In this document: positions 6,638 to 36,917 of the stretch, in pieces
Layout: the number at the start of each line of letters is the position of its first letter
Numbering within the stretch: position 1 is the stretch's first letter
IMG/VR virus record: IMGVR_UViG_3300005253_000610
Coordinates: 1 to 61,224 of that record
Origin: a virus
Lineage: Duplodnaviria; Caudoviricetes
Length of the DNA stretch: 61,224 nt
Strand: one strand, 5' to 3'
Notes under the pieces: generated by a model
The model's input: the letters and a program-made list of their open reading frames with translations, nothing else
What the model was told of the DNA's origin: nothing
Databases searched by the model: none
Translations under genes and position numbers: made by a program

Positions 6638-7947
6638 TGGCAACCGTAACAGGGACAAATATCCGACTGGAGTTGCAGAAGTGGGGGATCATTCTCCTGA
6701 CAGGTGCTCCCAGTGCCACAGGCGCAGTCGGATACCTGACTGACACGGAGATGTTGCAGGCAGACACTATAGCTCCTACCATCTTTGATGGGGCTTATGT
6801 TCGTATCAATACAGCAGGAGGCGTCGCTGCCGGGGAGATCGTTCGTGTAGATTATGTAGACGGTGTAAATGGGAGATTGAATGTTACACCTGATTGGTCC
6901 TCCGCGCCAACTACTAGCGCACGGTACGAAATCTTCCGTCCTGGTGTTGATCCTGATGACGCAGACAGGGCGAGGGATAACGCCCTAACGGACGTGTGCA
7001 GCCAGTGGTATCTCCATCCAGTGTCGGAGGTTACTAATGCTGCCTATGTGGAGGCGCTTAGCTCATCGAATTGGGAGGCGATTAACAACGCCGCTATCGC
7101 CAAGCAGGTTCTTGGCTTCCCAATGGAGTTCGCCAGGGATTCCATCCTTGTTACTAACTCAGGAGCAAACGGAGGCGCAGAATCCTTCTCCATCTACACA
7201 CAGCCGGGCAAGAGCTTTTACCTTTGGGTTCCAGTGAGTGGGCGGACAGGAACAGCAGAGGTTGTTGTACGCGATATAACAAACAGTGCAGACATAACCC
7301 TCAACGGTACGTCCACACTTACAGGGCGCGGGTGGTCTGCTATTGAAGTAACCGGACAGATACCAAGCGGATGCTATGAGATCACAATTCGCCTACAGGC
7401 ACAGGGGGCAAGTGATATAGCAGAGTATGGTCCCATTTGCTTCCACTGGCAGGAACAGCGGCGTATCAGCCTGCCTGCGCGTGTGGTTAGCCGTGAATGG
7501 GTGGGGCCAGTACAGAGGCTCACTAACCAGGCAATTGCTGACGACAACTGGGCGCAGGAGGATATAAATGAGGTACTAGGTGTCCGTGTCGAGCAGGTAT
7601 CAGATAATGTTCAGCTACGATTTAACGAACCGCTAAGTACACAACCCCACTTCTATCTGGAGCGGGCGTATTATAGTGCTCTGTCCGCAACGTATATTAC
7701 GGATGCAGCACGGGCTACGGGGGATGCAGCTACCACGCTCTGTCCTACGGACTATGTAGTCCCCGCAATGACGAAACTGCTTGCTGAACAGTATAGGATC
7801 AAACACTCATGGGATAGTGAGTTCTGGGACGGCGTGCTACAACAGGCTACACGGGAACTGGCTATTAAAGAGAAGCTGTATGGGCCGAAGACAAAGGCGC
7901 GTATCGAACGTGCGCGGGGGATAAGTATCCCTAACTTGAGAATATAG
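6637..7947 (+). CDS. Putative tail adaptor / tubular protein A-like, with inserted carbohydrate-binding-like domain
   Basis: Position before a nozzle-sized gene; helical ends around a central beta-rich domain. Confidence 0.5.
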   Translation: MATVTGTNIRLELQKWGIILLTGAPSATGAVGYLTDTEMLQADTIAPTIFDGAYVRINTAGGVAAGEIVRVDYVDGVNGRLNVTPDWSSAPTTSARYEIFRPGVDPDDADRARDNALTDVCSQWYLHPVSEVTNAAYVEALSSSNWEAINNAAIAKQVLGFPMEFARDSILVTNSGANGGAESFSIYTQPGKSFYLWVPVSGRTGTAEVVVRDITNSADITLNGTSTLTGRGWSAIEVTGQIPSGCYEITIRLQAQGASDIAEYGPICFHWQEQRRISLPARVVSREWVGPVQRLTNQAIADDNWAQEDINEVLGVRVEQVSDNVQLRFNEPLSTQPHFYLERAYYSALSATYITDAARATGDAATTLCPTDYVVPAMTKLLAEQYRIKHSWDSEFWDGVLQQATRELAIKEKLYGPKTKARIERARGISIPNLRI

Positions 7948-16555: not shown

Positions 16556-16983
16556 ATATCACCACCCGCTAACATGTTAAGGAGATCGTCTTCATGGAAG
16601 AATACTCCATTAGCAAACCTGTACATAAGGTCAAACCTCTCAGGCTCTCGATCAAACACCACGTATCCCGGCTTCCCTTGTCCAATCATATATCCCAACT
16701 CTAAGTGGCTCGACTTCCCTGCGGGCAATAGGAGGACTGCTATTTCAGCAGCGTCCATATGTTCCCTGTCCCAATAAAAGATATTGTCTGCTGCTTCACC
16801 ATAGAGGGCTTCAACATATGACCTCCCACGTGTCACCTCGTATTGCTGCCAACAATCGTCGGCCCGCTCGCCCGCACCCCACCAGTCATCGAAGACATCA
16901 AACCCAGCAGCACGAAGGCGGTTACCAAGAAGGGGTACTTTCGGGTTTCGGAGTGATCCAATCAACTGTATCTTCATTGCCAT
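16543..16983 (-). CDS. Nucleoside 2-deoxyribosyltransferase/TIR-like protein
   Basis: LIGS.RN, D.EHMD.A...VLLLPAGKSSHLELGY..GQGK. Confidence 0.7.
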   Translation of the reverse strand: MAMKIQLIGSLRNPKVPLLGNRLRAAGFDVFDDWWGAGERADDCWQQYEVTRGRSYVEALYGEAADNIFYWDREHMDAAEIAVLLLPAGKSSHLELGYMIGQGKPGYVVFDREPERFDLMYRFANGVFFHEDDLLNMLAGGDICHT

Positions 16984-17726
16984 TTCTTTGTAATCTCCTC
17001 AACAAATGCCTTCACACGTTTGGGGCCAAGACCATCTACCGTCCTACAAAAGTCCTTAGCAGGTAGCGTTGTCGCAGCAATGTATATACCCAACACACTA
17101 CCATACTCTTCTAACATCGCTGTTGCAGTCTCAGGCCCAATACCATCAAACGCACACAGGCTCCATACTGCATTCTTATACTCCCCATCCAACGTCAGTA
17201 CCTCTGGCCTAGTCCGCTGCCTCAACCATTTATGCTCACTCTTTGACAAGTTCACAGCAAGCCGTGCAATCTCCCTAGCTGCATCACCAGCATTAGGACA
17301 GTCGATGAAGTCTATACCTAGAAGCATCACATCAGCCTTGATAGCCTGGAAGGAATCCCAGTTCCAGCCTGACCGTACCCACCCGTTACTGTCAGCTTGC
17401 GGGTGCTTAGGTGCCTGGTACGCTACCTGTCCTGCGTCCTCTGTGTACCTCCCACGTACCATGATAAAGGCGATGTCCCCTGTATTTGCCAGGCCGTGTG
17501 CCTGTGCTACTAGGCGTTTAGACGTGAGCTTACCAAGGAGATCGGATACCGTGCTGAGTTCAATGAGAACGGTTAGCCCATGTGCAAAGAAGGCATAGTC
17601 TCCATACTGTAACCTACTTACTACTGCTTGTAAGCCGTAGGATTGGAGGGAGACAGCCATGTGCTCTGGTTCACGGTCATCTACGATGATGAGGGGCGCG
17701 GTGGGAGTAGCCTTAGCTTTGGTCAT
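16974..17726 (-). CDS. ERCC4/XPF-family nuclease with HhH motifs
   Basis: VDDREP, L.YGDY, IELSTVSDL, DGIGP, DGLGPKR. Confidence 0.8.
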   Translation of the reverse strand: MTKAKATPTAPLIIVDDREPEHMAVSLQSYGLQAVVSRLQYGDYAFFAHGLTVLIELSTVSDLLGKLTSKRLVAQAHGLANTGDIAFIMVRGRYTEDAGQVAYQAPKHPQADSNGWVRSGWNWDSFQAIKADVMLLGIDFIDCPNAGDAAREIARLAVNLSKSEHKWLRQRTRPEVLTLDGEYKNAVWSLCAFDGIGPETATAMLEEYGSVLGIYIAATTLPAKDFCRTVDGLGPKRVKAFVEEITKKWQ

Positions 17727-18240
17727 CTGACACCTTTCTAAAAATACAGCAAGCCCGCAGCCGATGCCACACCCGCGTTGCAACAAGGATACGCATGAAG
17801 TATTCAGTTTGATCTGGGCGAGGTGTTACAGTTACATGATAAGACGCAATGAAACCACCAACCTGTGTTACACGAACGGCTTCCCGTATATAATCCTTGT
17901 AAACAATAGGGGGCGTCTTGTACATACGCGCCGACTCCTCTGCGCTATACGGAGGGTCAGCAATAGTAAGCATAAACACGTTGTCCTTAAAGGGCAATCT
18001 ATGGGCATCTCCTTGCACATCAGGTGGCGTCCAAGCCAAGTTCGGATGATTAGAGTAAGGATGTGTACGCCGCATATCTATACGAAGCCCATACTCAGCC
18101 ATACCCCCAAATTGATTAAGTATAGGGTGGGGGTTATCTAATACACGTACTAACTTTTTCTCGAAATGGAGCGGCCAGCTTCCGGGATAGGCGTCTTGTC
18201 GTGGCCGTGGTAGTACCCAAGCAAGTGTTGGAACAGCCAT
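17713..18240 (-). CDS. Small SAM-dependent methyltransferase-like protein
   Basis: GDAHRLPF, IADPPY, EAVRVTQVGG. Confidence 0.7.
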   Translation of the reverse strand: MAVPTLAWVLPRPRQDAYPGSWPLHFEKKLVRVLDNPHPILNQFGGMAEYGLRIDMRRTHPYSNHPNLAWTPPDVQGDAHRLPFKDNVFMLTIADPPYSAEESARMYKTPPIVYKDYIREAVRVTQVGGFIASYHVTVTPRPDQTEYFMRILVATRVWHRLRACCIFRKVSDDQS

Positions 18241-32989: not shown

Positions 32990-33412
32990 CTACTCCTCAG
33001 CCGCTTCTAGTATCATCTCAAGCGTAACCGTGTAATCCATGAAAAGTGCCTTTGCCACGCTCGCTAACTTTTTTAACCCTAAGACTAAAGCGGCGTCTGC
33101 TATATGTAGAAGATAATGATCATACCGTGACATTGGAAAGGCTCGTGTAATAATCTCAGCATAGTGTAACTCAAACGTCTCCCTCTTAGGGTTGCGGACT
33201 ACGCCAAGTTTCTGTGCGTACTCTGCTACACCCACTGCAAAGCGAATCCTTGCCGTAAAGAGGTACTTCAGAGCGTCGTCTAAGGCCATAGGACTACCGG
33301 GCTCACAAATATCCGGTCCTCTTAATGCACAGGCCACGTCGTAAATAGCCCTCGTGTTCCATGCCACATCCCTTACCTGAGTAGCCTTCTTCTTCCAAAA
33401 TAGTAAATTCAT
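32990..33412 (-). CDS. Hypothetical 'RGPD' protein, paralog of 36910..37542
   Basis: YDV..A.RGPD...LK.LFT..IR...HYL.HI..AA.VL...TVT.E.IL. Confidence 0.65.
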   Translation of the reverse strand: MNLLFWKKKATQVRDVAWNTRAIYDVACALRGPDICEPGSPMALDDALKYLFTARIRFAVGVAEYAQKLGVVRNPKRETFELHYAEIITRAFPMSRYDHYLLHIADAALVLGLKKLASVAKALFMDYTVTLEMILEAAEE

Positions 33413-33762
33413 TTTCTCTCACCTCCAAAACAAGTACACTCATCAAGCCTATTAGCAAACTGCGTACATAACCTAGTCATCGTCTCATCACACACCTTCC
33501 CCTGTCGCCCCCCTGTCGTACACCTCCACACATGGACATATGGTTGTGCATCTGAATACCCACCGTACTCCCATGCACATGCCCCCCCATGTATCCGCTT
33601 CGGATTATTGGGCATGAAGGGCGGAAGAGCAGGGGTAATGGGCGGTAAATAATCCGTACCTGCCTGCTGCATTGCCTTCTCCAAATTCTTCTTATCCTCT
33701 TCGGCAGATGCCCACCAAGAGTCTGCTATTCCTGACATAGGTAGTGTACCTCCTGCTGTCAC
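33409..33762 (-). CDS. Cys-rich hypothetical protein
   Basis: ORF in operon. Confidence 0.45.
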   Translation of the reverse strand: MTAGGTLPMSGIADSWWASAEEDKKNLEKAMQQAGTDYLPPITPALPPFMPNNPKRIHGGACAWEYGGYSDAQPYVHVWRCTTGGRQGKVCDETMTRLCTQFANRLDECTCFGGERK

Positions 33763-33794: not shown

Positions 33795-34340
33795 CTAGTC
33801 TGTACACTCCACAACCATTTGTTTCTCCTGATGCTCTGGTACATAGTGTGACGCTACAGTAACTTCCCTCTCTACCAGCTTACAGTTCTCAGTGTTAGGG
33901 ATGCAATCAAAGTTACAGTGGAGAGATACCCCAGCTTTAGATGCGCTAACAGTGATAGACAGCCCGCCCTTTGGGTCAAAGCTTTCTCGCGCCTTACCTT
34001 TATTCCTTACCTCCCAACCCTGTCGCGTAAGCGCCTTGCCCATCTTAGTAATCGTGCCCAGCATTCGATCCACCATACCGGGCTGATCCACGTCACCAAC
34101 CGCCTCAAGAGACAAGTGTATGTCACCCAGTTTAGACGCGTCAGTATATGAAGGCGACGTACGAAGGCTGCTCACCTGATAGGTAGTACCTAATGTGCTG
34201 GGCATAAAAGGTAGCAGGTCTATGATAATCTGCTTGCCCAACCGTCGTTGTCTAGCTCTTTGGTTGCACTCCCTCCGCTCCTCTCCTGTAAGTATATCTA
34301 ACTGATCTAAGAATCCTGCATTCCTAAGTGTATTAGTCAT
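33795..34340 (-). CDS. Hypothetical protein downstream of Ubl
   Basis: ATG 34340 with SD AGGAGGT. Confidence 0.55.
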   Translation of the reverse strand: MTNTLRNAGFLDQLDILTGEERRECNQRARQRRLGKQIIIDLLPFMPSTLGTTYQVSSLRTSPSYTDASKLGDIHLSLEAVGDVDQPGMVDRMLGTITKMGKALTRQGWEVRNKGKARESFDPKGGLSITVSASKAGVSLHCNFDCIPNTENCKLVEREVTVASHYVPEHQEKQMVVECTD

Positions 34341-34439
34341 GTTACCTCCTATAATCCGTTCAAAGTGGAGGGAACAGAGGGAGTGATCAATCTCCCCCCA
34401 TCCCCCTTCATATACATGCTGCAAGAAGGGTTGATTCCC

Positions 34440-34697
34440 TTAGGCTCCCTTAACCCCACCCGACGCAAGCCGTGTCCCAATAGCAAGGATCACGTCGCCT
34501 GCGCGCAGTTGTGCATCCGTGGTGTCCTTGCTAATGATGTGCCCATCCAGGGATAGCTCATTGTTGGTGAAGGGATTCACGCTGCCAAAGAACTTCTTCA
34601 GTGCATCCTTCACCGTTACCATCGTACCATTGATAGCATATGTCTCATGCTTGCTGGTCGTGGCAACAACTACTATTCCATGTTCGTTACTTGCCAT
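34440..34697 (-). CDS. Ubiquitin-like (beta-grasp) protein
   Basis: 85 aa; TV.DAL...L.LDG...L..GD.I; tail LASGGVKGA; SD AGGAGGT; next to E1. Confidence 0.8.
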   Translation of the reverse strand: MASNEHGIVVVATTSKHETYAINGTMVTVKDALKKFFGSVNPFTNNELSLDGHIISKDTTDAQLRAGDVILAIGTRLASGGVKGA

Positions 34698-34768
34698 TCT
34701 TACCTCCTATATACGATGCTAGTAGATACTGGTCGTGATCACGACCCTTCGTTGCAGCCAGTAAAATG

Positions 34769-34858
34769 CTAAAGGGGTATGTGTGCGAATCCGATGCCTA
34801 TCCAACAGCCGATAGTTCCACACACAACGCCAAAGGTAAAACTACTTAGGTGAAGCAT
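34769..34858 (-). CDS. 29-aa TM micropeptide between E1 and Ubl
   Basis: MLHLSSFTFGVVCGTIGCWIGIGFAHIPL; AAGGAGGT SD within the E1 3' end. Confidence 0.55.
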   Translation of the reverse strand: MLHLSSFTFGVVCGTIGCWIGIGFAHIPL

Positions 34859-34860
34859 GA

Positions 34861-35547
34861 TTATTGTACCTCCTTACTCTCTACTTGTGGTAGTGCCTGT
34901 ACTGTAGGCACATGCCATACTCTCAACGCTGGGATCGGTATTCCCTTACACCACTGGTTGATCGTGCTTGCTATCTGCGATGCGAGGAACATTCCGACAT
35001 ATGCTGTGCCAGACTGCCCGCAGGGTACATCATCTACCTCATCGTCCGTTGGCAAGGCAGCAAGGTACTCCGCATATCCCTCCTTCGTCGTAACAGTAGC
35101 GAGGACCGCCAGCTCCCCCTGTATTCTCCCATCCAGGTAGAGAGGGACATTATGATCCCTCGCCCACTCTGCGTTGGCCTTCCTGCCTGACATAGAATCA
35201 ACAGCGGATACGAGTGCAGTGGTAGGATGGCTACCGGGATACGGAAAGGGCGTACTCTGCCCACTCAAACGTAGGTACGGATTGGGCAGGCTTTGGTAGA
35301 GCGCCTCGACCTTACTCCGCCCAACATCGCTAGTGGTATAGGGTTGACAGCCCACATTCACGTCTTCAACTTCGTCAGGATCGAAGAAGATTAACCCGTA
35401 TACTGCCCTACTCAATGCGTGTGCCGTCCACCCCCCTATCATCCCTACTCCTGCTATCGTCACCTCCATCTCTGCCATCTTCGGGTGTATGATCCCATGT
35501 TGTCGCTGGTGCATCACCTTTGTGTGTAGTATACGCTTACCGTCCAC
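34861..35547 (-). CDS. E1-like ThiF/MoeB adenylating enzyme
   Basis: IAGVGMIGG, DPDEVE..N...Q, K..AL, SAVDS..GR, YLDGR, candidate catalytic Cys in VPCG. Confidence 0.9.
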   Translation of the reverse strand: MDGKRILHTKVMHQRQHGIIHPKMAEMEVTIAGVGMIGGWTAHALSRAVYGLIFFDPDEVEDVNVGCQPYTTSDVGRSKVEALYQSLPNPYLRLSGQSTPFPYPGSHPTTALVSAVDSMSGRKANAEWARDHNVPLYLDGRIQGELAVLATVTTKEGYAEYLAALPTDDEVDDVPCGQSGTAYVGMFLASQIASTINQWCKGIPIPALRVWHVPTVQALPQVESKEVQ

Positions 35548-36172
35548 GTTCTTCCCCTTCCTCTGCTATCTTCCTAAACGATGCTAAGTCTTCCGCATTC
35601 CAAACGCCATACTCATATGGTAGAGCCTGACCACGTAACGAAGGATACGCCCCCTTAGGAGTCACAGGACTTTTATCTATCACCCTCTTCATCATCTGTT
35701 TTACCTGTGTAGCTACCCCGTGAGATGCAAATGTACCCTTAGCCTCTACATCCAGCTCAGCAAAGAGGCCCACGGGATGCTCGACATCGATCCATCCGTA
35801 ATACTCACCACGTAGGTTTGTAACTAGTCCGGCGAACCAGCCCAAGTCAGGGACGGACTCGGCTAGTAACTCCAGGGTGTCGTCATCCTGTCTGCTTGGG
35901 TGTGTAGTCATCCCGCAGTGTGAGTGCCACCATACGGGGTAGTCAGACAGGGTGTGTCCTTTTCTTGCTATCTCGATTAGTGTAGTACGCAGATTCCCTT
36001 TCTCTATGTCTGTATATGCTCCTCCACCTTCTTGTGGCGGGATGATGATATCAGTAACAGTGATCTTCCCATCCTCCAGATGCGCCTTACCAAAGCCGGA
36101 TACTTCCAGTGTCGGCTCCGCTTTCACGGCAAGCCGAATCATTTGTGCTGCCTTCTGACGAAGGACTATCAT
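35537..36172 (-). CDS. JAB/MPN+ metallo-isopeptidase (Prok-JAB)
   Basis: EVSGFG; WWHSHCGMTTHPSRQD = HxH-x7-S-x2-D JAMM motif. Confidence 0.9.
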   Translation of the reverse strand: MIVLRQKAAQMIRLAVKAEPTLEVSGFGKAHLEDGKITVTDIIIPPQEGGGAYTDIEKGNLRTTLIEIARKGHTLSDYPVWWHSHCGMTTHPSRQDDDTLELLAESVPDLGWFAGLVTNLRGEYYGWIDVEHPVGLFAELDVEAKGTFASHGVATQVKQMMKRVIDKSPVTPKGAYPSLRGQALPYEYGVWNAEDLASFRKIAEEGEERGR

Positions 36173-36176
36173 TCCT

Positions 36177-36917
36177 CTACCTCCTTAGTGCGCCGAACAT
36201 AGCAGTACGCAACGCTGCAATAGTTGTAACTTCTCCCGTATCACTGCGTTGAATCTTACTTGTAGGGGGGCAGACTTCTAACCAAGCTGCACCTTCCTCT
36301 GCCCAATCATCCACATACAGACTAGTAGGATCATAGCCTAGTCTCCAACGAGAAGCGATACGCAAGAGAGGTAGCGGGTAGGGCACGGTGCTAAGAGCGT
36401 ATATAACATCACCCACACTACCCCAACAAATACTCTCATTGTCTATATGCGGATGTGTCCCTTCTAACACTTCGCAGTCCATGTAGTCGTCCTCCCAAAT
36501 AAGATGAAGCGTTAGCTCTGTTGTCATGCCCATGCTACCTTCATCTATGATCGCAACAGGAACAAATATAACAATTAGGGCGTGAACCCCAACCTGGTTT
36601 GCTGCCACAACTTCAGGCCATCTACGTACTTCTGTAAGGGCATTCTCCCATACAAAGACTTCCTCACCCCTCTTAGGCATAAGATTCAGATGAGGAGAAG
36701 GACTATCACAGTATACGACTCGGCGTGTGTTTAGCCATGAATGGATGCGGCGGCTACGTAACGCAAACTCTTGCGGGTCCTCAATCCGACGCCCGTCAAG
36801 TACCCTCAGCCACCTTCCAGTGCCCACTAAGGATTGGACGGGGAGCACACCGTCATACTGTGAGACTGCGTACTCTAAGATGGCACTGTACGATATTAGT
36901 GCTCTCTCTTCAGGCAT
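36177..36917 (-). CDS. E2/UBC-like conjugating enzyme (C-terminal domain)
   Basis: HPHIDNESICWG resembles UBC HPNI...G.IC; followed by helical L...L..YDP.S.Y. Confidence 0.7.
   Translation of the reverse strand: MPEERALISYSAILEYAVSQYDGVLPVQSLVGTGRWLRVLDGRRIEDPQEFALRSRRIHSWLNTRRVVYCDSPSPHLNLMPKRGEEVFVWENALTEVRRWPEVVAANQVGVHALIVIFVPVAIIDEGSMGMTTELTLHLIWEDDYMDCEVLEGTHPHIDNESICWGSVGDVIYALSTVPYPLPLLRIASRWRLGYDPTSLYVDDWAEEGAAWLEVCPPTSKIQRSDTGEVTTIAALRTAMFGALRR

What the first reader, a model, noticed from the sequence alone, without database searches (positions are those of the whole stretch)
34440..36917. Complete phage-encoded ubiquitin-like conjugation operon (E2 - JAB - E1 - Ubl) in the early arm
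Seen: four co-oriented genes, each with intact-looking catalytic motifs. They are an E2-like protein (HPHIDNESICWG), a JAMM protease (E...HSH-x7-S-x2-D), a ThiF/E1 (GxGxxG, DxD, AVDS, DGR, PCG Cys) and an 85-aa beta-grasp protein ending ...SGGVKGA. Known: E1+E2+JAB+Ubl sets form bacterial conjugation systems (Bil/Bub defence, PRTRC cassettes, CBASS Cap2/Cap3). Here the set is on the phage, among early genes, with no thiamine/Moco genes and no link to tail assembly. Inference: the phage 'ubiquitinates' host or its own proteins early in infection, or its JAB removes host Ubl tags as anti-Bil/CBASS counter-defence. JAB would first trim the Ubl to a terminal Gly (after GG or KG).
Basis: partly seen in the sequence, partly recalled or inferred. 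Interest (0 to 1): 0.92.

Follow-up and report, generated by a model that had tools for sequence, protein, structure and literature searches.

The report
Phage-encoded ubiquitin-like conjugation gene cassette
A phage from a sediment metagenome carries, among its DNA-replication genes, a conserved four-gene set that looks like a miniature ubiquitin system (tag protein, activating enzyme, probable conjugating enzyme, trimming protease), a kind of machinery studied so far mainly as bacterial defence against phages.

Summary
The window is a 97%-complete virus record.

Three of the four assignments hold:
- E1: Pfam ThiF, E 4e-9, above the cut-off.
- JAB: a complete JAMM motif, but only a sub-threshold Prok-JAB hit.
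- Ubl: the 85-aa protein folds as a beta-grasp with a floppy C-terminal tail (pLDDT 71; best PDB matches are MoaD/ThiS-like proteins and SUMO).

A predicted E1 dimer plus Ubl complex threads that tail into the adenylation site (ipSAE 0.67 against 0.02 for the best control).

The E2 assignment is not confirmed. It rests on an invariant HPH...C-x-G motif, a low-confidence model (pLDDT 41), gene order and a language-model lead to Prok-E2_D. No profile or fold search supports it.

The same cassette lies next to a uracil-DNA glycosylase gene in two other phage contigs. Looser E1/JAB sets occur in Flavobacterium and crAss-like phages.

It fails the membership tests for PRTRC, Bil and CBASS. Verdict: a real, probably new phage-borne variant of Ubl conjugation systems. 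Its targets and role are unknown.

The parts
36177..36917 (-). 246-aa E2-like candidate with invariant H155-P-H157...C164-x-G166. It lacks the Cys-rich C-terminal module of its longer relatives.
   Evidence: ORF. Five relatives were found. Invariant residues W100 P101 P120 H155 P156 H157 C164 G166 W191 Y201 W205 G228 in 6 of 6 sequences. No hit in Pfam, PHROGs, NCBIfam, PADLOC or PDB sequences. AF2 pLDDT 41.4; the secondary-structure order fits a UBC fold but at low confidence. Atlas lead to Prok-E2_D.
35537..36172 (-). 211-aa JAB/JAMM metalloprotease (E23, H83, H85, S93, D96)
   Evidence: Pfam Prok-JAB E 8.9e-5, 22.8 bits, below the 25-bit cut-off. PADLOC JAB models E 1.1e-4 and weaker. The motif is invariant in 3 of 3 sequences.
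34861..35547 (-). 228-aa minimal ThiF/MoeB-type E1 with a single adenylation domain and conserved Cys176
   Evidence: Pfam ThiF E 4e-9, 36.4 bits, above the 28.1-bit cut-off. phrog_15670 E 1.5e-14. Best PDB sequence matches are TcdA (2.6e-5) and UBA5. Best plasmid match is a PRTRC ThiF protein, 35% identity over about 120 residues. R15 G33 G35 D56 N64 Q68 K79 D117 R122 D139 G140 C176 are invariant in an alignment of the three cassette E1s with the FpV4, cr106_1 and PRTRC E1s.
34440..34697 (-). 85-aa beta-grasp ubiquitin-like protein with the tail R-L-A-S-G-G-V-K-G-A
   Evidence: AF2 pLDDT 71.4, strand-strand-helix-strand-strand-strand order with a disordered tail at 76-85. Foldseek against PDB: best matches MTH1743, MoaD (6jbz_B) and SUMO, E from 7.5e-4, probability 1.0. 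Predicted complex with the E1 dimer: ipSAE 0.67 against 0.02 for the best control. No sequence-family hit.
34731..34746 (.). 16-bp perfect palindrome 34 nt upstream of the Ubl start codon; a possible operator or RNA hairpin that regulates the Ubl gene separately
   Evidence: Single occurrence in the window (0.01 expected by chance). The identical palindrome lies 38 nt upstream of the Ubl gene in L006. L002 has a different palindrome at the same place. The function is inferred.

Best explanation
This is a phage-encoded, four-component ubiquitin-like protein conjugation module.

Proposed mechanism:
1. The 228-aa E1, a homodimeric minimal ThiF/MoeB-type adenylating enzyme, binds the flexible C-terminal tail of the 85-aa beta-grasp protein and adenylates its C-terminus. 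This step is supported by a model.
2. The activated Ubl passes as a thioester to E1 Cys176 and then to Cys164 of the 246-aa protein, which acts as the E2 through its HPH...C active-site loop. This step is inferred.
3. The Ubl is then attached to lysines of unknown phage or host proteins. This step is inferred.
4. The JAMM protease matures the Ubl by cutting after Gly81, and/or removes it from targets. This step is inferred.

The module is a fixed part of the replication-gene arm, next to a uracil-DNA glycosylase gene, in at least three related phages. It therefore most likely serves the phage's own infection programme and is not a mobile defence island.
For: - Gene structure and motifs.
- E1: Pfam ThiF above its cut-off, with the catalytic set R15, G-x-G-x-x-G, D56, K79, D117, R122 and C176 conserved out to PRTRC ThiF.
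- JAB: the full JAMM motif is invariant.
- Ubl: beta-grasp model at pLDDT 71.4, with Foldseek probability 1.0 to MoaD/ThiS-like proteins, SUMO and ubiquitin-like domains.
- E1x2 + Ubl complex: score 0.67, best of 3 controls 0.02. That mark was reached by 58 of 80 solved complexes and 2 of 110 mismatched pairs. The runs agree in at least 90% of contacts, and the partner's pLDDT is at least 80. Ubl residues 76-85 contact the E1 P-loop (33, 35-38), A115-M119 and 140-148.
- E2-like protein: the HPH...C-x-G motif is invariant in 6 of 6 sequences. The predicted order is a short helix, five strands, the HPH loop and Cys, then four helices (low confidence). In the Atlas feature search, 26 of 30 nearest clusters share the Prok-E2_D set, with the family on 14-39% of members of the top three clusters, at score 0.96. 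hhalign pairs its Cys motif with the Prok-E2_D Cys motif.
- Synteny: the order E2-like, JAB, E1, Ubl, then UDG is the same in three phage contigs.
- No rhodanese, cysteine desulfurase, CD-NTase or integrase in the record.
Against: - The UBC fold of the 246-aa protein is unverified. The AF2 model has pLDDT 41.4, with 179 of 246 residues below 50. Foldseek's best E-value is 0.57; Rad6, Ubc13 and UbcH5b appear only at E 0.9-2.2. Pfam gave no hit even at E<=10. hhalign against 43 Prok-E2_D sequences covers 10 columns at probability 3%.
- The window's copy is much more diverged than the other three genes (26-29% against 49-59% identity). It also lacks the Cys-rich C-terminal module present in 5 of 5 relatives. 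It could be losing function.
- The Arg of the E1 N-x-x-R-Q motif is Cys67 here. It is Cys, Asn, Gly and Gly in the other phage E1s, but Arg in PRTRC ThiF.
- The best structural matches of the Ubl include sulfur carriers (MoaD, ThiS, TtuB).
- The complex may pass by likeness to solved MoeB-MoaD and ThiF-ThiS complexes, and it would pass equally for a sulfur carrier. It used my own 3-row alignments and a 2+1 chain set-up unlike the calibration.
- No target, no expression data and no biochemistry.
Confidence: 0.55

Rival explanations
1. The E1 activates the Ubl, and conjugation (or another fate) proceeds without an E2, as in archaeal SAMP or Urm1-type systems. The 246-aa protein is not a thioester carrier. 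It would be a substrate, an adaptor or an unrelated Cys/His enzyme that happens to share the operon.
For: E1, JAB and Ubl are each supported, and E1:Ubl passes. In contrast, no profile or fold search supports an E2 fold. The 246-aa protein evolves much faster than its neighbours and has lost a domain.
Against: The His-Pro-His...Cys-x-Gly motif is invariant in 6 of 6 relatives despite 23-27% overall identity to the window's protein. The spacing and predicted secondary-structure order resemble a UBC active site. The Atlas feature search points to Prok-E2_D. The gene keeps its place directly upstream of JAB and E1 in three phages.
Confidence: 0.17
2. This is a sulfur-carrier pathway. The E1 adenylates the Ubl so that it becomes a C-terminal thiocarboxylate, which donates sulfur to a small molecule or nucleic-acid modification. 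The JAB exposes the Gly-Gly end or releases an adduct, as in CysO/Mec+-type systems.
For: The best structural matches include MoaD, ThiS and TtuB. The best NCBIfam hits of the E1 are ThiF models (E 3e-12, far below their cut-offs). Gene sets of JAB, E1 and a ThiS/MoaD-like protein for sulfur assimilation are described in Iyer et al. 2006 (PMC1779556; passages and section 14 read).
Against: Six-frame searches of the 97%-complete record found no rhodanese or cysteine desulfurase. None of the 20 window proteins scanned against Pfam hit a thiamine, molybdopterin or sulfurtransferase family. An extra conserved Cys/His protein sits in the operon. The four residues after Gly-Gly are conserved.
Confidence: 0.12
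3. The main role is counter-defence. The phage JAB strips host Ubl or CD-NTase conjugates (Bil or type II CBASS), or the phage E1 and E2 compete with the host's; the phage's own Ubl is secondary.
For: Weak PADLOC hits to CBASS-type JAB models (E 1.1e-4) and E1-E2 models (E 3.1e-10), and an NCBIfam hit to 6A-MBL cap2_3 (E 8e-4). Host Ubl systems are known to target phage proteins (Chambers et al. preprint, PMC10557695, passages read).
Against: All of those hits are far below family level. The phage keeps a complete set with its own Ubl, and the predicted E1 site fits that Ubl. The host and its defences are unknown.
Confidence: 0.08
4. The cassette is a defence system carried by the phage against competing phages (superinfection exclusion), like Bil systems on mobile elements.
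For: Known bacterial E1/E2/JAB/Ubl operons act in anti-phage immunity or lie on mobile elements (PMC10557695 passages; PMC1779556 Table 1). The best plasmid match of the E1 is a PRTRC ThiF protein.
Against: No integrase in the record. The cassette holds a fixed, syntenic place between replication genes in three phages, not a variable island. None of the four proteins reaches a PADLOC family-level match.
Confidence: 0.08

Closest known systems
PRTRC cassette of plasmids and ICEs (operon type 6d of Iyer, Burroughs & Aravind 2006; Pfam Prok_Ub, Prok-E2_D, ThiF, JAB)
   Same: Both have a separate small Ubl, a separate E2-like protein with an I-C-x-G Cys motif, a stand-alone short ThiF-type E1 and a JAB, and both sit on a mobile replicon. 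The best plasmid match of the window's E1 is a PRTRC ThiF protein. The Atlas lead for the E2-like protein is Prok-E2_D, which is PRTRC protein B.
   Different: The window's proteins give no hit to the PRTRC_B, PRTRC_C or Prok_Ub models, and the E1 scores 24.7 bits against the 144.75-bit PRTRC_ThiF cut-off. No PRTRC model (ParB, protein E, the alpha-helical protein) hit the seven cassette and flanking proteins scanned. The E2-like protein has His-Pro-His upstream of the Cys, whereas type 6d E2s lack that His and have one downstream (PMC1779556). The JAB has no N-terminal extra domain. The E1 lacks the Arg of N-x-x-R-Q that PRTRC ThiF keeps.
BilABCD bacterial ubiquitination-like defence
   Same: Four parts: Ubl, E1, E2 and a JAB deubiquitinase that pre-processes the Ubl to expose a C-terminal Gly (PMC10557695 passages).
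   Different: The Bil E1 has inactive and active adenylation domains plus a CYS domain and zinc sites, while this E1 is a single 228-aa domain. The Bil E2 has its conserved His after the Cys. Bil is a bacterial defence system, whereas this cassette sits in a phage replication arm.
Type II CBASS Cap2 (E1-E2 fusion) and Cap3 (JAB)
   Same: A minimal bacterial-type E1 chemistry paired with a JAB. The E1 and JAB give weak PADLOC hits to these models.
   Different: Here E1 and E2-like are separate genes, a dedicated Ubl is present, and the record has no SMODS CD-NTase.
ThiF-ThiS, MoeB-MoaD and CysO-Mec+ sulfur-carrier pairs
   Same: The E1 size and fold class, a beta-grasp partner with a Gly-Gly tail, and a predicted tail-in-active-site complex.
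   Different: There is an extra E2-like Cys protein, no sulfur-transfer genes, and the setting is phage replication genes.
Lambdoid and T1-like phage tail-assembly Ubl (TAPI) with the JAB of TAPK
   Same: A Ubl and a JAB encoded by a phage (PMC1779556). The BFVD fold search puts tip-attachment-protein J fusions first.
   Different: Those have no E1 or E2 and sit in the tail module. This cassette is in the replication arm, on the opposite strand to the block that holds the terminase gene.
Unannotated E1/JAB gene sets of Flavobacterium phages (FpV4 group) and crAss-like phages (e.g. cr106_1)
   Same: A ThiF-type E1 (27-31% identity, also lacking the motif Arg) lies directly after a Prok-JAB protein. 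That follows a roughly 420-aa protein with an H-x-H...C-x-G motif, within a few genes of a UDG gene. FpV4 also has an upstream Ubl-like N-terminus ending SGG.
   Different: Homology of the E2-like and Ubl-like parts to the window's proteins is not statistically supported (hhalign E 0.25-0.69). Those proteins are much larger. I saw no separate small Ubl in the stretches of FpV4 or cr106_1 that I read.

Membership tests
E1-like adenylating enzymes (ThiF/MoeB, Pfam PF00899) | Profile match above the curated cut-off | tested here: met
   36.4 bits against a 28.1-bit cut-off, E 4e-9.
E1-like adenylating enzymes (ThiF/MoeB, Pfam PF00899) | Nucleotide-binding G-x-G-x-x-G loop, N-terminal Arg, Lys and Mg-binding Asp | tested here: met
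   R15, G33, G35, K79, D117 and R122 are invariant across 6 E1s, including PRTRC ThiF. Their roles are assigned from recalled MoeB/ThiF literature.
E1-like adenylating enzymes (ThiF/MoeB, Pfam PF00899) | Arg of the N-x-x-R-Q motif | tested here: not met
   It is Cys67 here, aligned to the Arg of TcdA and of PRTRC ThiF. The position is Cys, Asn, Gly and Gly in the other phage E1s.
E1-like adenylating enzymes (ThiF/MoeB, Pfam PF00899) | Conserved Cys in the loop after the adenylation core (thioester or acyl-persulfide site) | tested here: inconclusive
   C176 is invariant in 6 of 6 aligned E1s. Its equivalence to the catalytic Cys of ThiF/MoeB rests on recall and a MAFFT alignment only.
JAB/JAMM metalloproteases (Pfam Prok-JAB PF14464) | E...H-x-H-x7-S-x2-D metal and catalytic motif | tested here: met
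   E23, H83, H85, S93 and D96 are invariant in 3 of 3 sequences.
JAB/JAMM metalloproteases (Pfam Prok-JAB PF14464) | Profile match above the curated cut-off | tested here: not met
   22.8 bits against a 25-bit cut-off, E 8.9e-5. No PDB sequence match at E<=1.
Ubiquitin-like beta-grasp modifiers | Beta-grasp fold | tested here: met
   AF2 pLDDT 71.4 from a 2-row alignment. Only the best of the five models is good; the five score 71, 58, 46, 40 and 38. Foldseek against PDB gave 3 matches at E<=0.001, and the listed matches are mostly Ubl, MoaD or ThiS folds. BFVD gave 6 matches at E<=0.001.
Ubiquitin-like beta-grasp modifiers | Flexible C-terminal tail with Gly-Gly that enters the E1 active site | tested here: met
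   S79-G80-G81 is invariant. In the model, tail residues 76-85 contact the E1 P-loop and D117 region; ipSAE 0.67 against 0.02. This is a model, not a measurement.
Ubiquitin-like beta-grasp modifiers | Sequence-family membership (Prok_Ub, ThiS, MoaD, ubiquitin) | tested here: not met
   No Pfam or NCBIfam hit. hhalign against PRTRC protein C gave E 0.56.
E2/UBC superfamily (including Pfam Prok-E2_A to E) | Active-site loop: His-Pro-Asn-like triad about 7-10 residues before the catalytic Cys | tested here: met
   H155-P156-H157...C164 is invariant in 6 of 6 sequences. The comparison with the classical HPN...C motif is recalled.
E2/UBC superfamily (including Pfam Prok-E2_A to E) | UBC fold (helix, four-strand meander, Cys loop, C-terminal helices) | tested here: inconclusive
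   The secondary-structure order fits, but model pLDDT is 41.4. Foldseek's best E-value is 0.57. The Atlas's own model has pLDDT 0.39.
E2/UBC superfamily (including Pfam Prok-E2_A to E) | Profile similarity to a known E2 family | tested here: not met
   No Pfam family for the window's protein, and no E2 family for any of the 5 members scanned, at E<=10. PF14460 was not found in the window or in three related phage records. hhalign against 43 Prok-E2_D sequences gave probability 3% over 10 columns. The PDB profile search found no E2.
PRTRC system | NCBIfam PRTRC models for ThiF, B (E2) and C (Ubl), plus ParB, E and F partners | tested here: not met
   PRTRC_ThiF scored 24.7 bits against a 144.75-bit cut-off. 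No other PRTRC model hit the 7 proteins scanned.
BilABCD | Large E1 with inactive and active adenylation domains and a CYS domain | tested here: not met
   The E1 is 228 aa with one ThiF domain. The Bil architecture is taken from PMC10557695 passages.
Type II CBASS (Cap2/Cap3) | E1-E2 fusion next to a CD-NTase | tested here: not met
   The genes are separate, and there is no SMODS match in the record.

The most novel reading that the evidence does not exclude
Tailed phages of several unrelated lineages carry their own ubiquitin-like conjugation machinery inside the replication module. The lineages are these sediment phages, the Flavobacterium FpV4 group and crAss-like gut phages. The machinery would be an ancient phage-side system with a near-classical HPN-type E2 loop. 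It would tag host or phage proteins (for instance replication or repair factors) during takeover. On this reading Ubl tagging is a weapon of the virus as well as of the cell.
Probability: 0.3. Interest if true: 0.9.

Novelty: new variant of a known kind. Interest (0 to 1): 0.7.

Why it matters
Bacterial E1/E2/JAB/Ubl systems (Bil, CBASS Cap2/3, Bub) are currently read as host immunity. A complete set fixed in the replication arm of phages would show the same chemistry used by the virus.

It would also give a very small, separable E1/E2/Ubl/protease set for biochemistry. Its E2-like protein has an active-site loop closer to the eukaryotic type than that of the plasmid PRTRC E2s, which bears on the origin of ubiquitin signalling.

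If the looser sets in crAss-like and Flavobacterium phages are the same system, cultured phage-host pairs are already available to test it.

I found no paper describing such a phage cassette in the searches. The library lacks most subscription papers. For example, I could not see the 2009 survey of the E1-like superfamily, and supplements were closed.

Tried and rejected
- DNA search of the region against GenBank phages: no match.
- tblastn against GenBank phages. The E2-like protein gave one spurious hit at E 0.2. The Ubl and the JAB gave no match.
- IMG/VR scan with the E2-like protein alone: none.
- Two metagenome-contig scans and one genome-contig scan: nothing.
- Word-based protein searches. 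The Ubl found only itself, 1 of 3 candidates. The E2 alignment recovered only 2 of its own members.
- Exhaustive HMMER search of 1.84 billion representatives with the E2-like protein: 5 proteins at E<=0.001. These are the query itself, three true long relatives, and one Kelch-repeat protein (P0005) that I dropped as spurious.
- PDB profile search with A1: 12 matches at E<=10, best 0.34, none an E2.
- Foldseek on the low-confidence E2 model: not meaningful.
- hhalign of the E2 family against Prok-E2_D, PRTRC_B, and the FpV4 and cr106_1 neighbours: not significant.
- hhalign of the Ubl against PRTRC_C and against the FpV4 289-aa protein: not significant.
- Atlas search with P0003: uninformative, score 0.86, no family.
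- The Cys-rich module of the long E2 forms has no remnant elsewhere in the window.
- The promoter and terminator scan gave no more sites than shuffled sequence.
- A paper with 30 'JAB' word hits turned out to be a species epithet.
- Sequencing runs: no RNA holder listed. The DNA holders may be the source sample itself, so they add no independent support.

Full report
**What is there**

The window is a whole IMG/VR virus record of 61,224 bp, estimated 97% complete.
- A minus-strand block from about 11.8 to 39.4 kb holds a family-A DNA polymerase and a helicase and a uracil-DNA glycosylase.
- The same block holds an ERCC4/HhH nuclease, an RNase-H-fold protein and an Amidase_2 lysin.
- A plus-strand block from 39.85 kb holds the terminase.
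- GC skew flips at the two block boundaries.

The four ORFs of the finding lie on the minus strand at exactly the stated coordinates, 2.3-4.8 kb from the divergent switch region. So "replication arm" is shown; "early" is inferred. The polymerase is at most 29% identical to that of any GenBank phage. The record has no tyrosine integrase.

**The genes are real and conserved**

Two other IMG/VR contigs carry the same set in the same order, followed within 1-3 kb by the same UDG gene (L002/L007, and L006).

| Protein | Identity to the window's copy |
|---|---|
| E1 | 59% and 55% |
| JAB | 49% and 49% |
| Ubl | 59% and 55% |
| E2-like | 26% and 29% |
| UDG | 58% |

The flanking 210-aa, 209-aa and 140-aa ORFs of the window have no counterpart in those loci, so the conserved unit is the four genes.

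**E1**

- Pfam ThiF is above its cut-off (E 4e-9), and phrog_15670 matches at E 1.5e-14.
- The best solved relatives by sequence are TcdA and UBA5.
- The best plasmid match is a PRTRC-system ThiF protein (35% over about 120 residues, E 9e-8).
- I aligned the three cassette E1s with the FpV4 and cr106_1 E1s and PRTRC ThiF. R15, the Gly-rich loop, D56, N64, Q68, K79, D117, R122, D139-G140 and C176 are invariant.
- One canonical residue is missing. The Arg of N-x-x-R-Q is Cys67 here, and Cys, Asn, Gly and Gly in the other phage E1s, while PRTRC ThiF keeps it.
- At 228 aa the protein is a bare adenylation domain, with no second domain, no rhodanese domain and no zinc motifs.

**JAB**

The complete JAMM motif (E23, H83-x-H85, S93, D96) is invariant in the three phages. 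The Pfam Prok-JAB hit is just under the cut-off (22.8 against 25 bits). PADLOC JAB models hit weakly.

**Ubl**

- No sequence family matches it, and a word-based search of 5.8 billion proteins found only the protein itself.
- The best AlphaFold model, made from a 2-row alignment, has pLDDT 71.4. It shows the strand-strand-helix-strand-strand-strand order of a beta-grasp and a disordered tail at 76-85. The other four models were poor (58 to 38).
- Foldseek against the PDB returns MTH1743, mycobacterial MoaD, SUMO, ThiS, NEDD8 and ubiquitin-like domains at probability about 1.0 and E from 7.5e-4.
- Against viral models it returns tail tip-attachment fusions, giant-virus ubiquitin-like domains and small phage proteins.
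- The tail R-L-A-S-G-G-[V/I]-K-G-A is identical in the three phages apart from the Val/Ile.

**E1 with Ubl**

A predicted complex of two E1 copies and one Ubl scored 0.67; the best of 3 controls scored 0.02.
- That mark was reached by 58 of 80 solved complexes and by 2 of 110 mismatched pairs.
- The runs agree in at least 90% of contacts, and the partner's pLDDT is at least 80.
- The Ubl tail (76-85) lies against the P-loop (33, 35-38), A115-M119 and 140-148 of one E1 copy.
- The terminal Ala85 touches residues 36-37, 115 and 117.

Caveats stated by the tool apply. I used my own 3-row alignments and a chain set-up unlike the calibration. Solved MoeB-MoaD and ThiF-ThiS type complexes exist, so the pass shows likeness and does not prove binding. 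It would pass equally for a sulfur carrier.

**The E2-like protein is the weak link**

Evidence for:
- H155-P-H157...C164-x-G166, W191, Y201 and W205 are invariant in 6 of 6 relatives that share only 23-27% identity with the window's protein.
- The His-to-Cys spacing resembles the classical HPN...C loop. That comparison is recalled, not tested.
- The low-confidence model has a short helix, five strands, the HPH/Cys loop and four helices, in that order.
- In the Atlas feature search, 26 of 30 nearest clusters share a set that carries Pfam Prok-E2_D on 14-39% of members of the top three clusters. The score is 0.96, a level that shuffled proteins reach about once in 100.
- I confirmed that Prok-E2_D is PRTRC protein B (E 6.5e-60). 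hhalign pairs the window's N-E-S-I-C-W-G-S-V-G stretch with the Cys motif of 43 PRTRC-B proteins.

Evidence against:
- That hhalign match is 10 columns at probability 3%.
- Pfam, PHROGs, NCBIfam, PADLOC and PDB sequence searches give nothing.
- The model's pLDDT is 41.4.
- Foldseek finds nothing below E 0.57; true E2s (Rad6, Ubc13, UbcH5b) appear only at E 0.9-2.2.

All five relatives are longer (346-473 aa). They end in a module with 12 conserved Cys and one His, whose spacing could form zinc sites. The window's protein stops before that module, JAB starts 5 nt later, and no remnant exists elsewhere in the window.

I put the chance that this protein is a true thioester-carrying E2 at about 0.6.

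**Wider distribution**

tblastn of the E1 against 50,697 GenBank phage records hit 73 records, all below 60% identity. By first word of the organism name, 29 are Flavobacterium, 29 Bacteroides and 10 uncultured, and several of the records are crAss-like phages. I read two contexts.
- In FpV4 the order is UDG, a 289-aa protein, a 420-aa protein, a 423-aa protein with a weak Prok-JAB hit (E 0.0076), then the ThiF gene.
- In crAss-like phage cr106_1 the order is a 434-aa protein, a 405-aa Prok-JAB protein (E 1.1e-6, above the cut-off), a 403-aa protein with a C-terminal ThiF domain, one more gene, then UDG.
- The 420-aa and 434-aa proteins are homologous to each other (E 1.8e-8). Both carry G-Y-M-H-S-H followed by C-x-G. 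Their similarity to the window's E2-like family is not significant.
- The FpV4 289-aa protein starts with about 84 residues that end in K-S-G-G, followed by a long acidic tail. The near-identical Fpv3 protein appears in the BFVD fold search with the window's Ubl model (E 0.013, TM 0.55). hhalign aligns SGG to SGG but at E 0.53.

These are leads that the same kind of system is widespread in phage replication modules. They are not proof.

**Known systems**

Iyer et al. 2006 describe five bacterial operon types with E1, JAB, E2-like and Ubl parts, mostly on ICEs and plasmids. For phages they describe only a tail-assembly Ubl plus JAB (PMC1779556; passages and section 14 read). The nearest type is 6d, which is PRTRC, but the window fails its models. 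It also differs in the E2 His position, in the JAB architecture and in lacking the PRTRC partner proteins among those scanned.

Bil has a much larger multi-domain E1, and its JAB pre-processes the Ubl (PMC10557695, passages). Bub works through oxyesters (PMC11601596, abstract and outline). CBASS needs a CD-NTase, which is absent here. So the cassette works like these systems but is a member of none that I could test.

**Mechanism and rivals**

The best reading is Ubl conjugation by an E1-to-E2 relay, with JAB for maturation or reversal (0.55). The rivals are:
- E2-independent activation or conjugation, with the 246-aa protein doing something else (0.17).
- A sulfur carrier (0.12). This is weakened by the absence of rhodanese and cysteine desulfurase.
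- Counter-defence as the main role (0.08).
- A phage-borne exclusion system (0.08).

Whether JAB trims after Gly81 is open. The FpV4 precursor-like protein argues for trimming. The conserved K-G-A end and the model's placement of Ala85 argue that the full tail may be used.

**Not in print, as far as I could search**

No paper in the library links crAssphage or Flavobacterium psychrophilum phages with ThiF. None describes a phage-encoded E1/E2/JAB/Ubl set. PRTRC appears only in annotation lists (listing seen). Subscription papers and supplements were not visible.

Noticed in passing
window 34731-34746; L006 9468-9483; L002 about 7055-7075: A 16-bp perfect palindrome lies 34-38 nt upstream of the Ubl start codon. 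It is identical in the window and L006, and L002 has a different palindrome at the same spot. It sits after a conserved CACCC...GGGTG element and before a strong AGGAGG ribosome-binding site. This suggests the Ubl gene is regulated separately from the enzymes.
   Followed up: partly
window 34769-34858 (-); L002 6701-7021: A 29-aa hydrophobic mini-ORF with its own Shine-Dalgarno-like site fills the E1-Ubl spacer. L002 has a 106-aa membrane-like ORF there, and L006 has none. It is probably not a core part.
   Followed up: partly
L003 (Flavobacterium phage FpV4) 625-4636: The gene order is a 289-aa protein with a Ubl-like N-terminus ending SGG plus about 205 aa of acidic tail, a 420-aa H-x-H...C-x-G protein, a JAB-containing protein, then ThiF, just downstream of UDG. 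In GenBank these are annotated only as hypothetical or 'thiamine biosynthesis protein'.
   Followed up: partly
L004 (crAss-like phage cr106_1) 1039-4717: A 434-aa H-x-H...C-x-G protein, a Prok-JAB protein and a 403-aa protein whose C-terminal half is ThiF lie two genes from UDG. The N-terminal 170 residues of the ThiF protein have no family hit. I saw no small Ubl in the stretch read.
   Followed up: partly
L002 3598-5019; L006 7040-8080; P0003, P0004, P0006: The long E2-like relatives end in a module with 12 conserved Cys and 1 His (C-x2-C...C-x-C-H...C-x2-C...C-x-C, then two more C-x2-C pairs). This may be a zinc or RING-like E3 part fused to the E2. It is absent from the window's protein.
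   Followed up: partly
window 34861-35547, residue 67: All five phage E1s examined lack the Arg of the N-x-x-R-Q motif that PRTRC ThiF and TcdA keep. This is a shared trait of the phage E1s with unknown consequence.
   Followed up: partly
window 16974-17786 (-): An ERCC4 nuclease domain with a helix-hairpin-helix domain (XPF/Mus81-like), an unusual nuclease type for a phage replication arm.
   Followed up: no
window 33409-33762 (-); L006 9820-10224: A Cys-rich 117-aa protein is conserved (40% identity) in L006 directly downstream of the Ubl. In the window, a unique 209-aa ORF (33795-34424) separates it from the Ubl. No match to it was found in the L002/L007 stretches searched.
   Followed up: no
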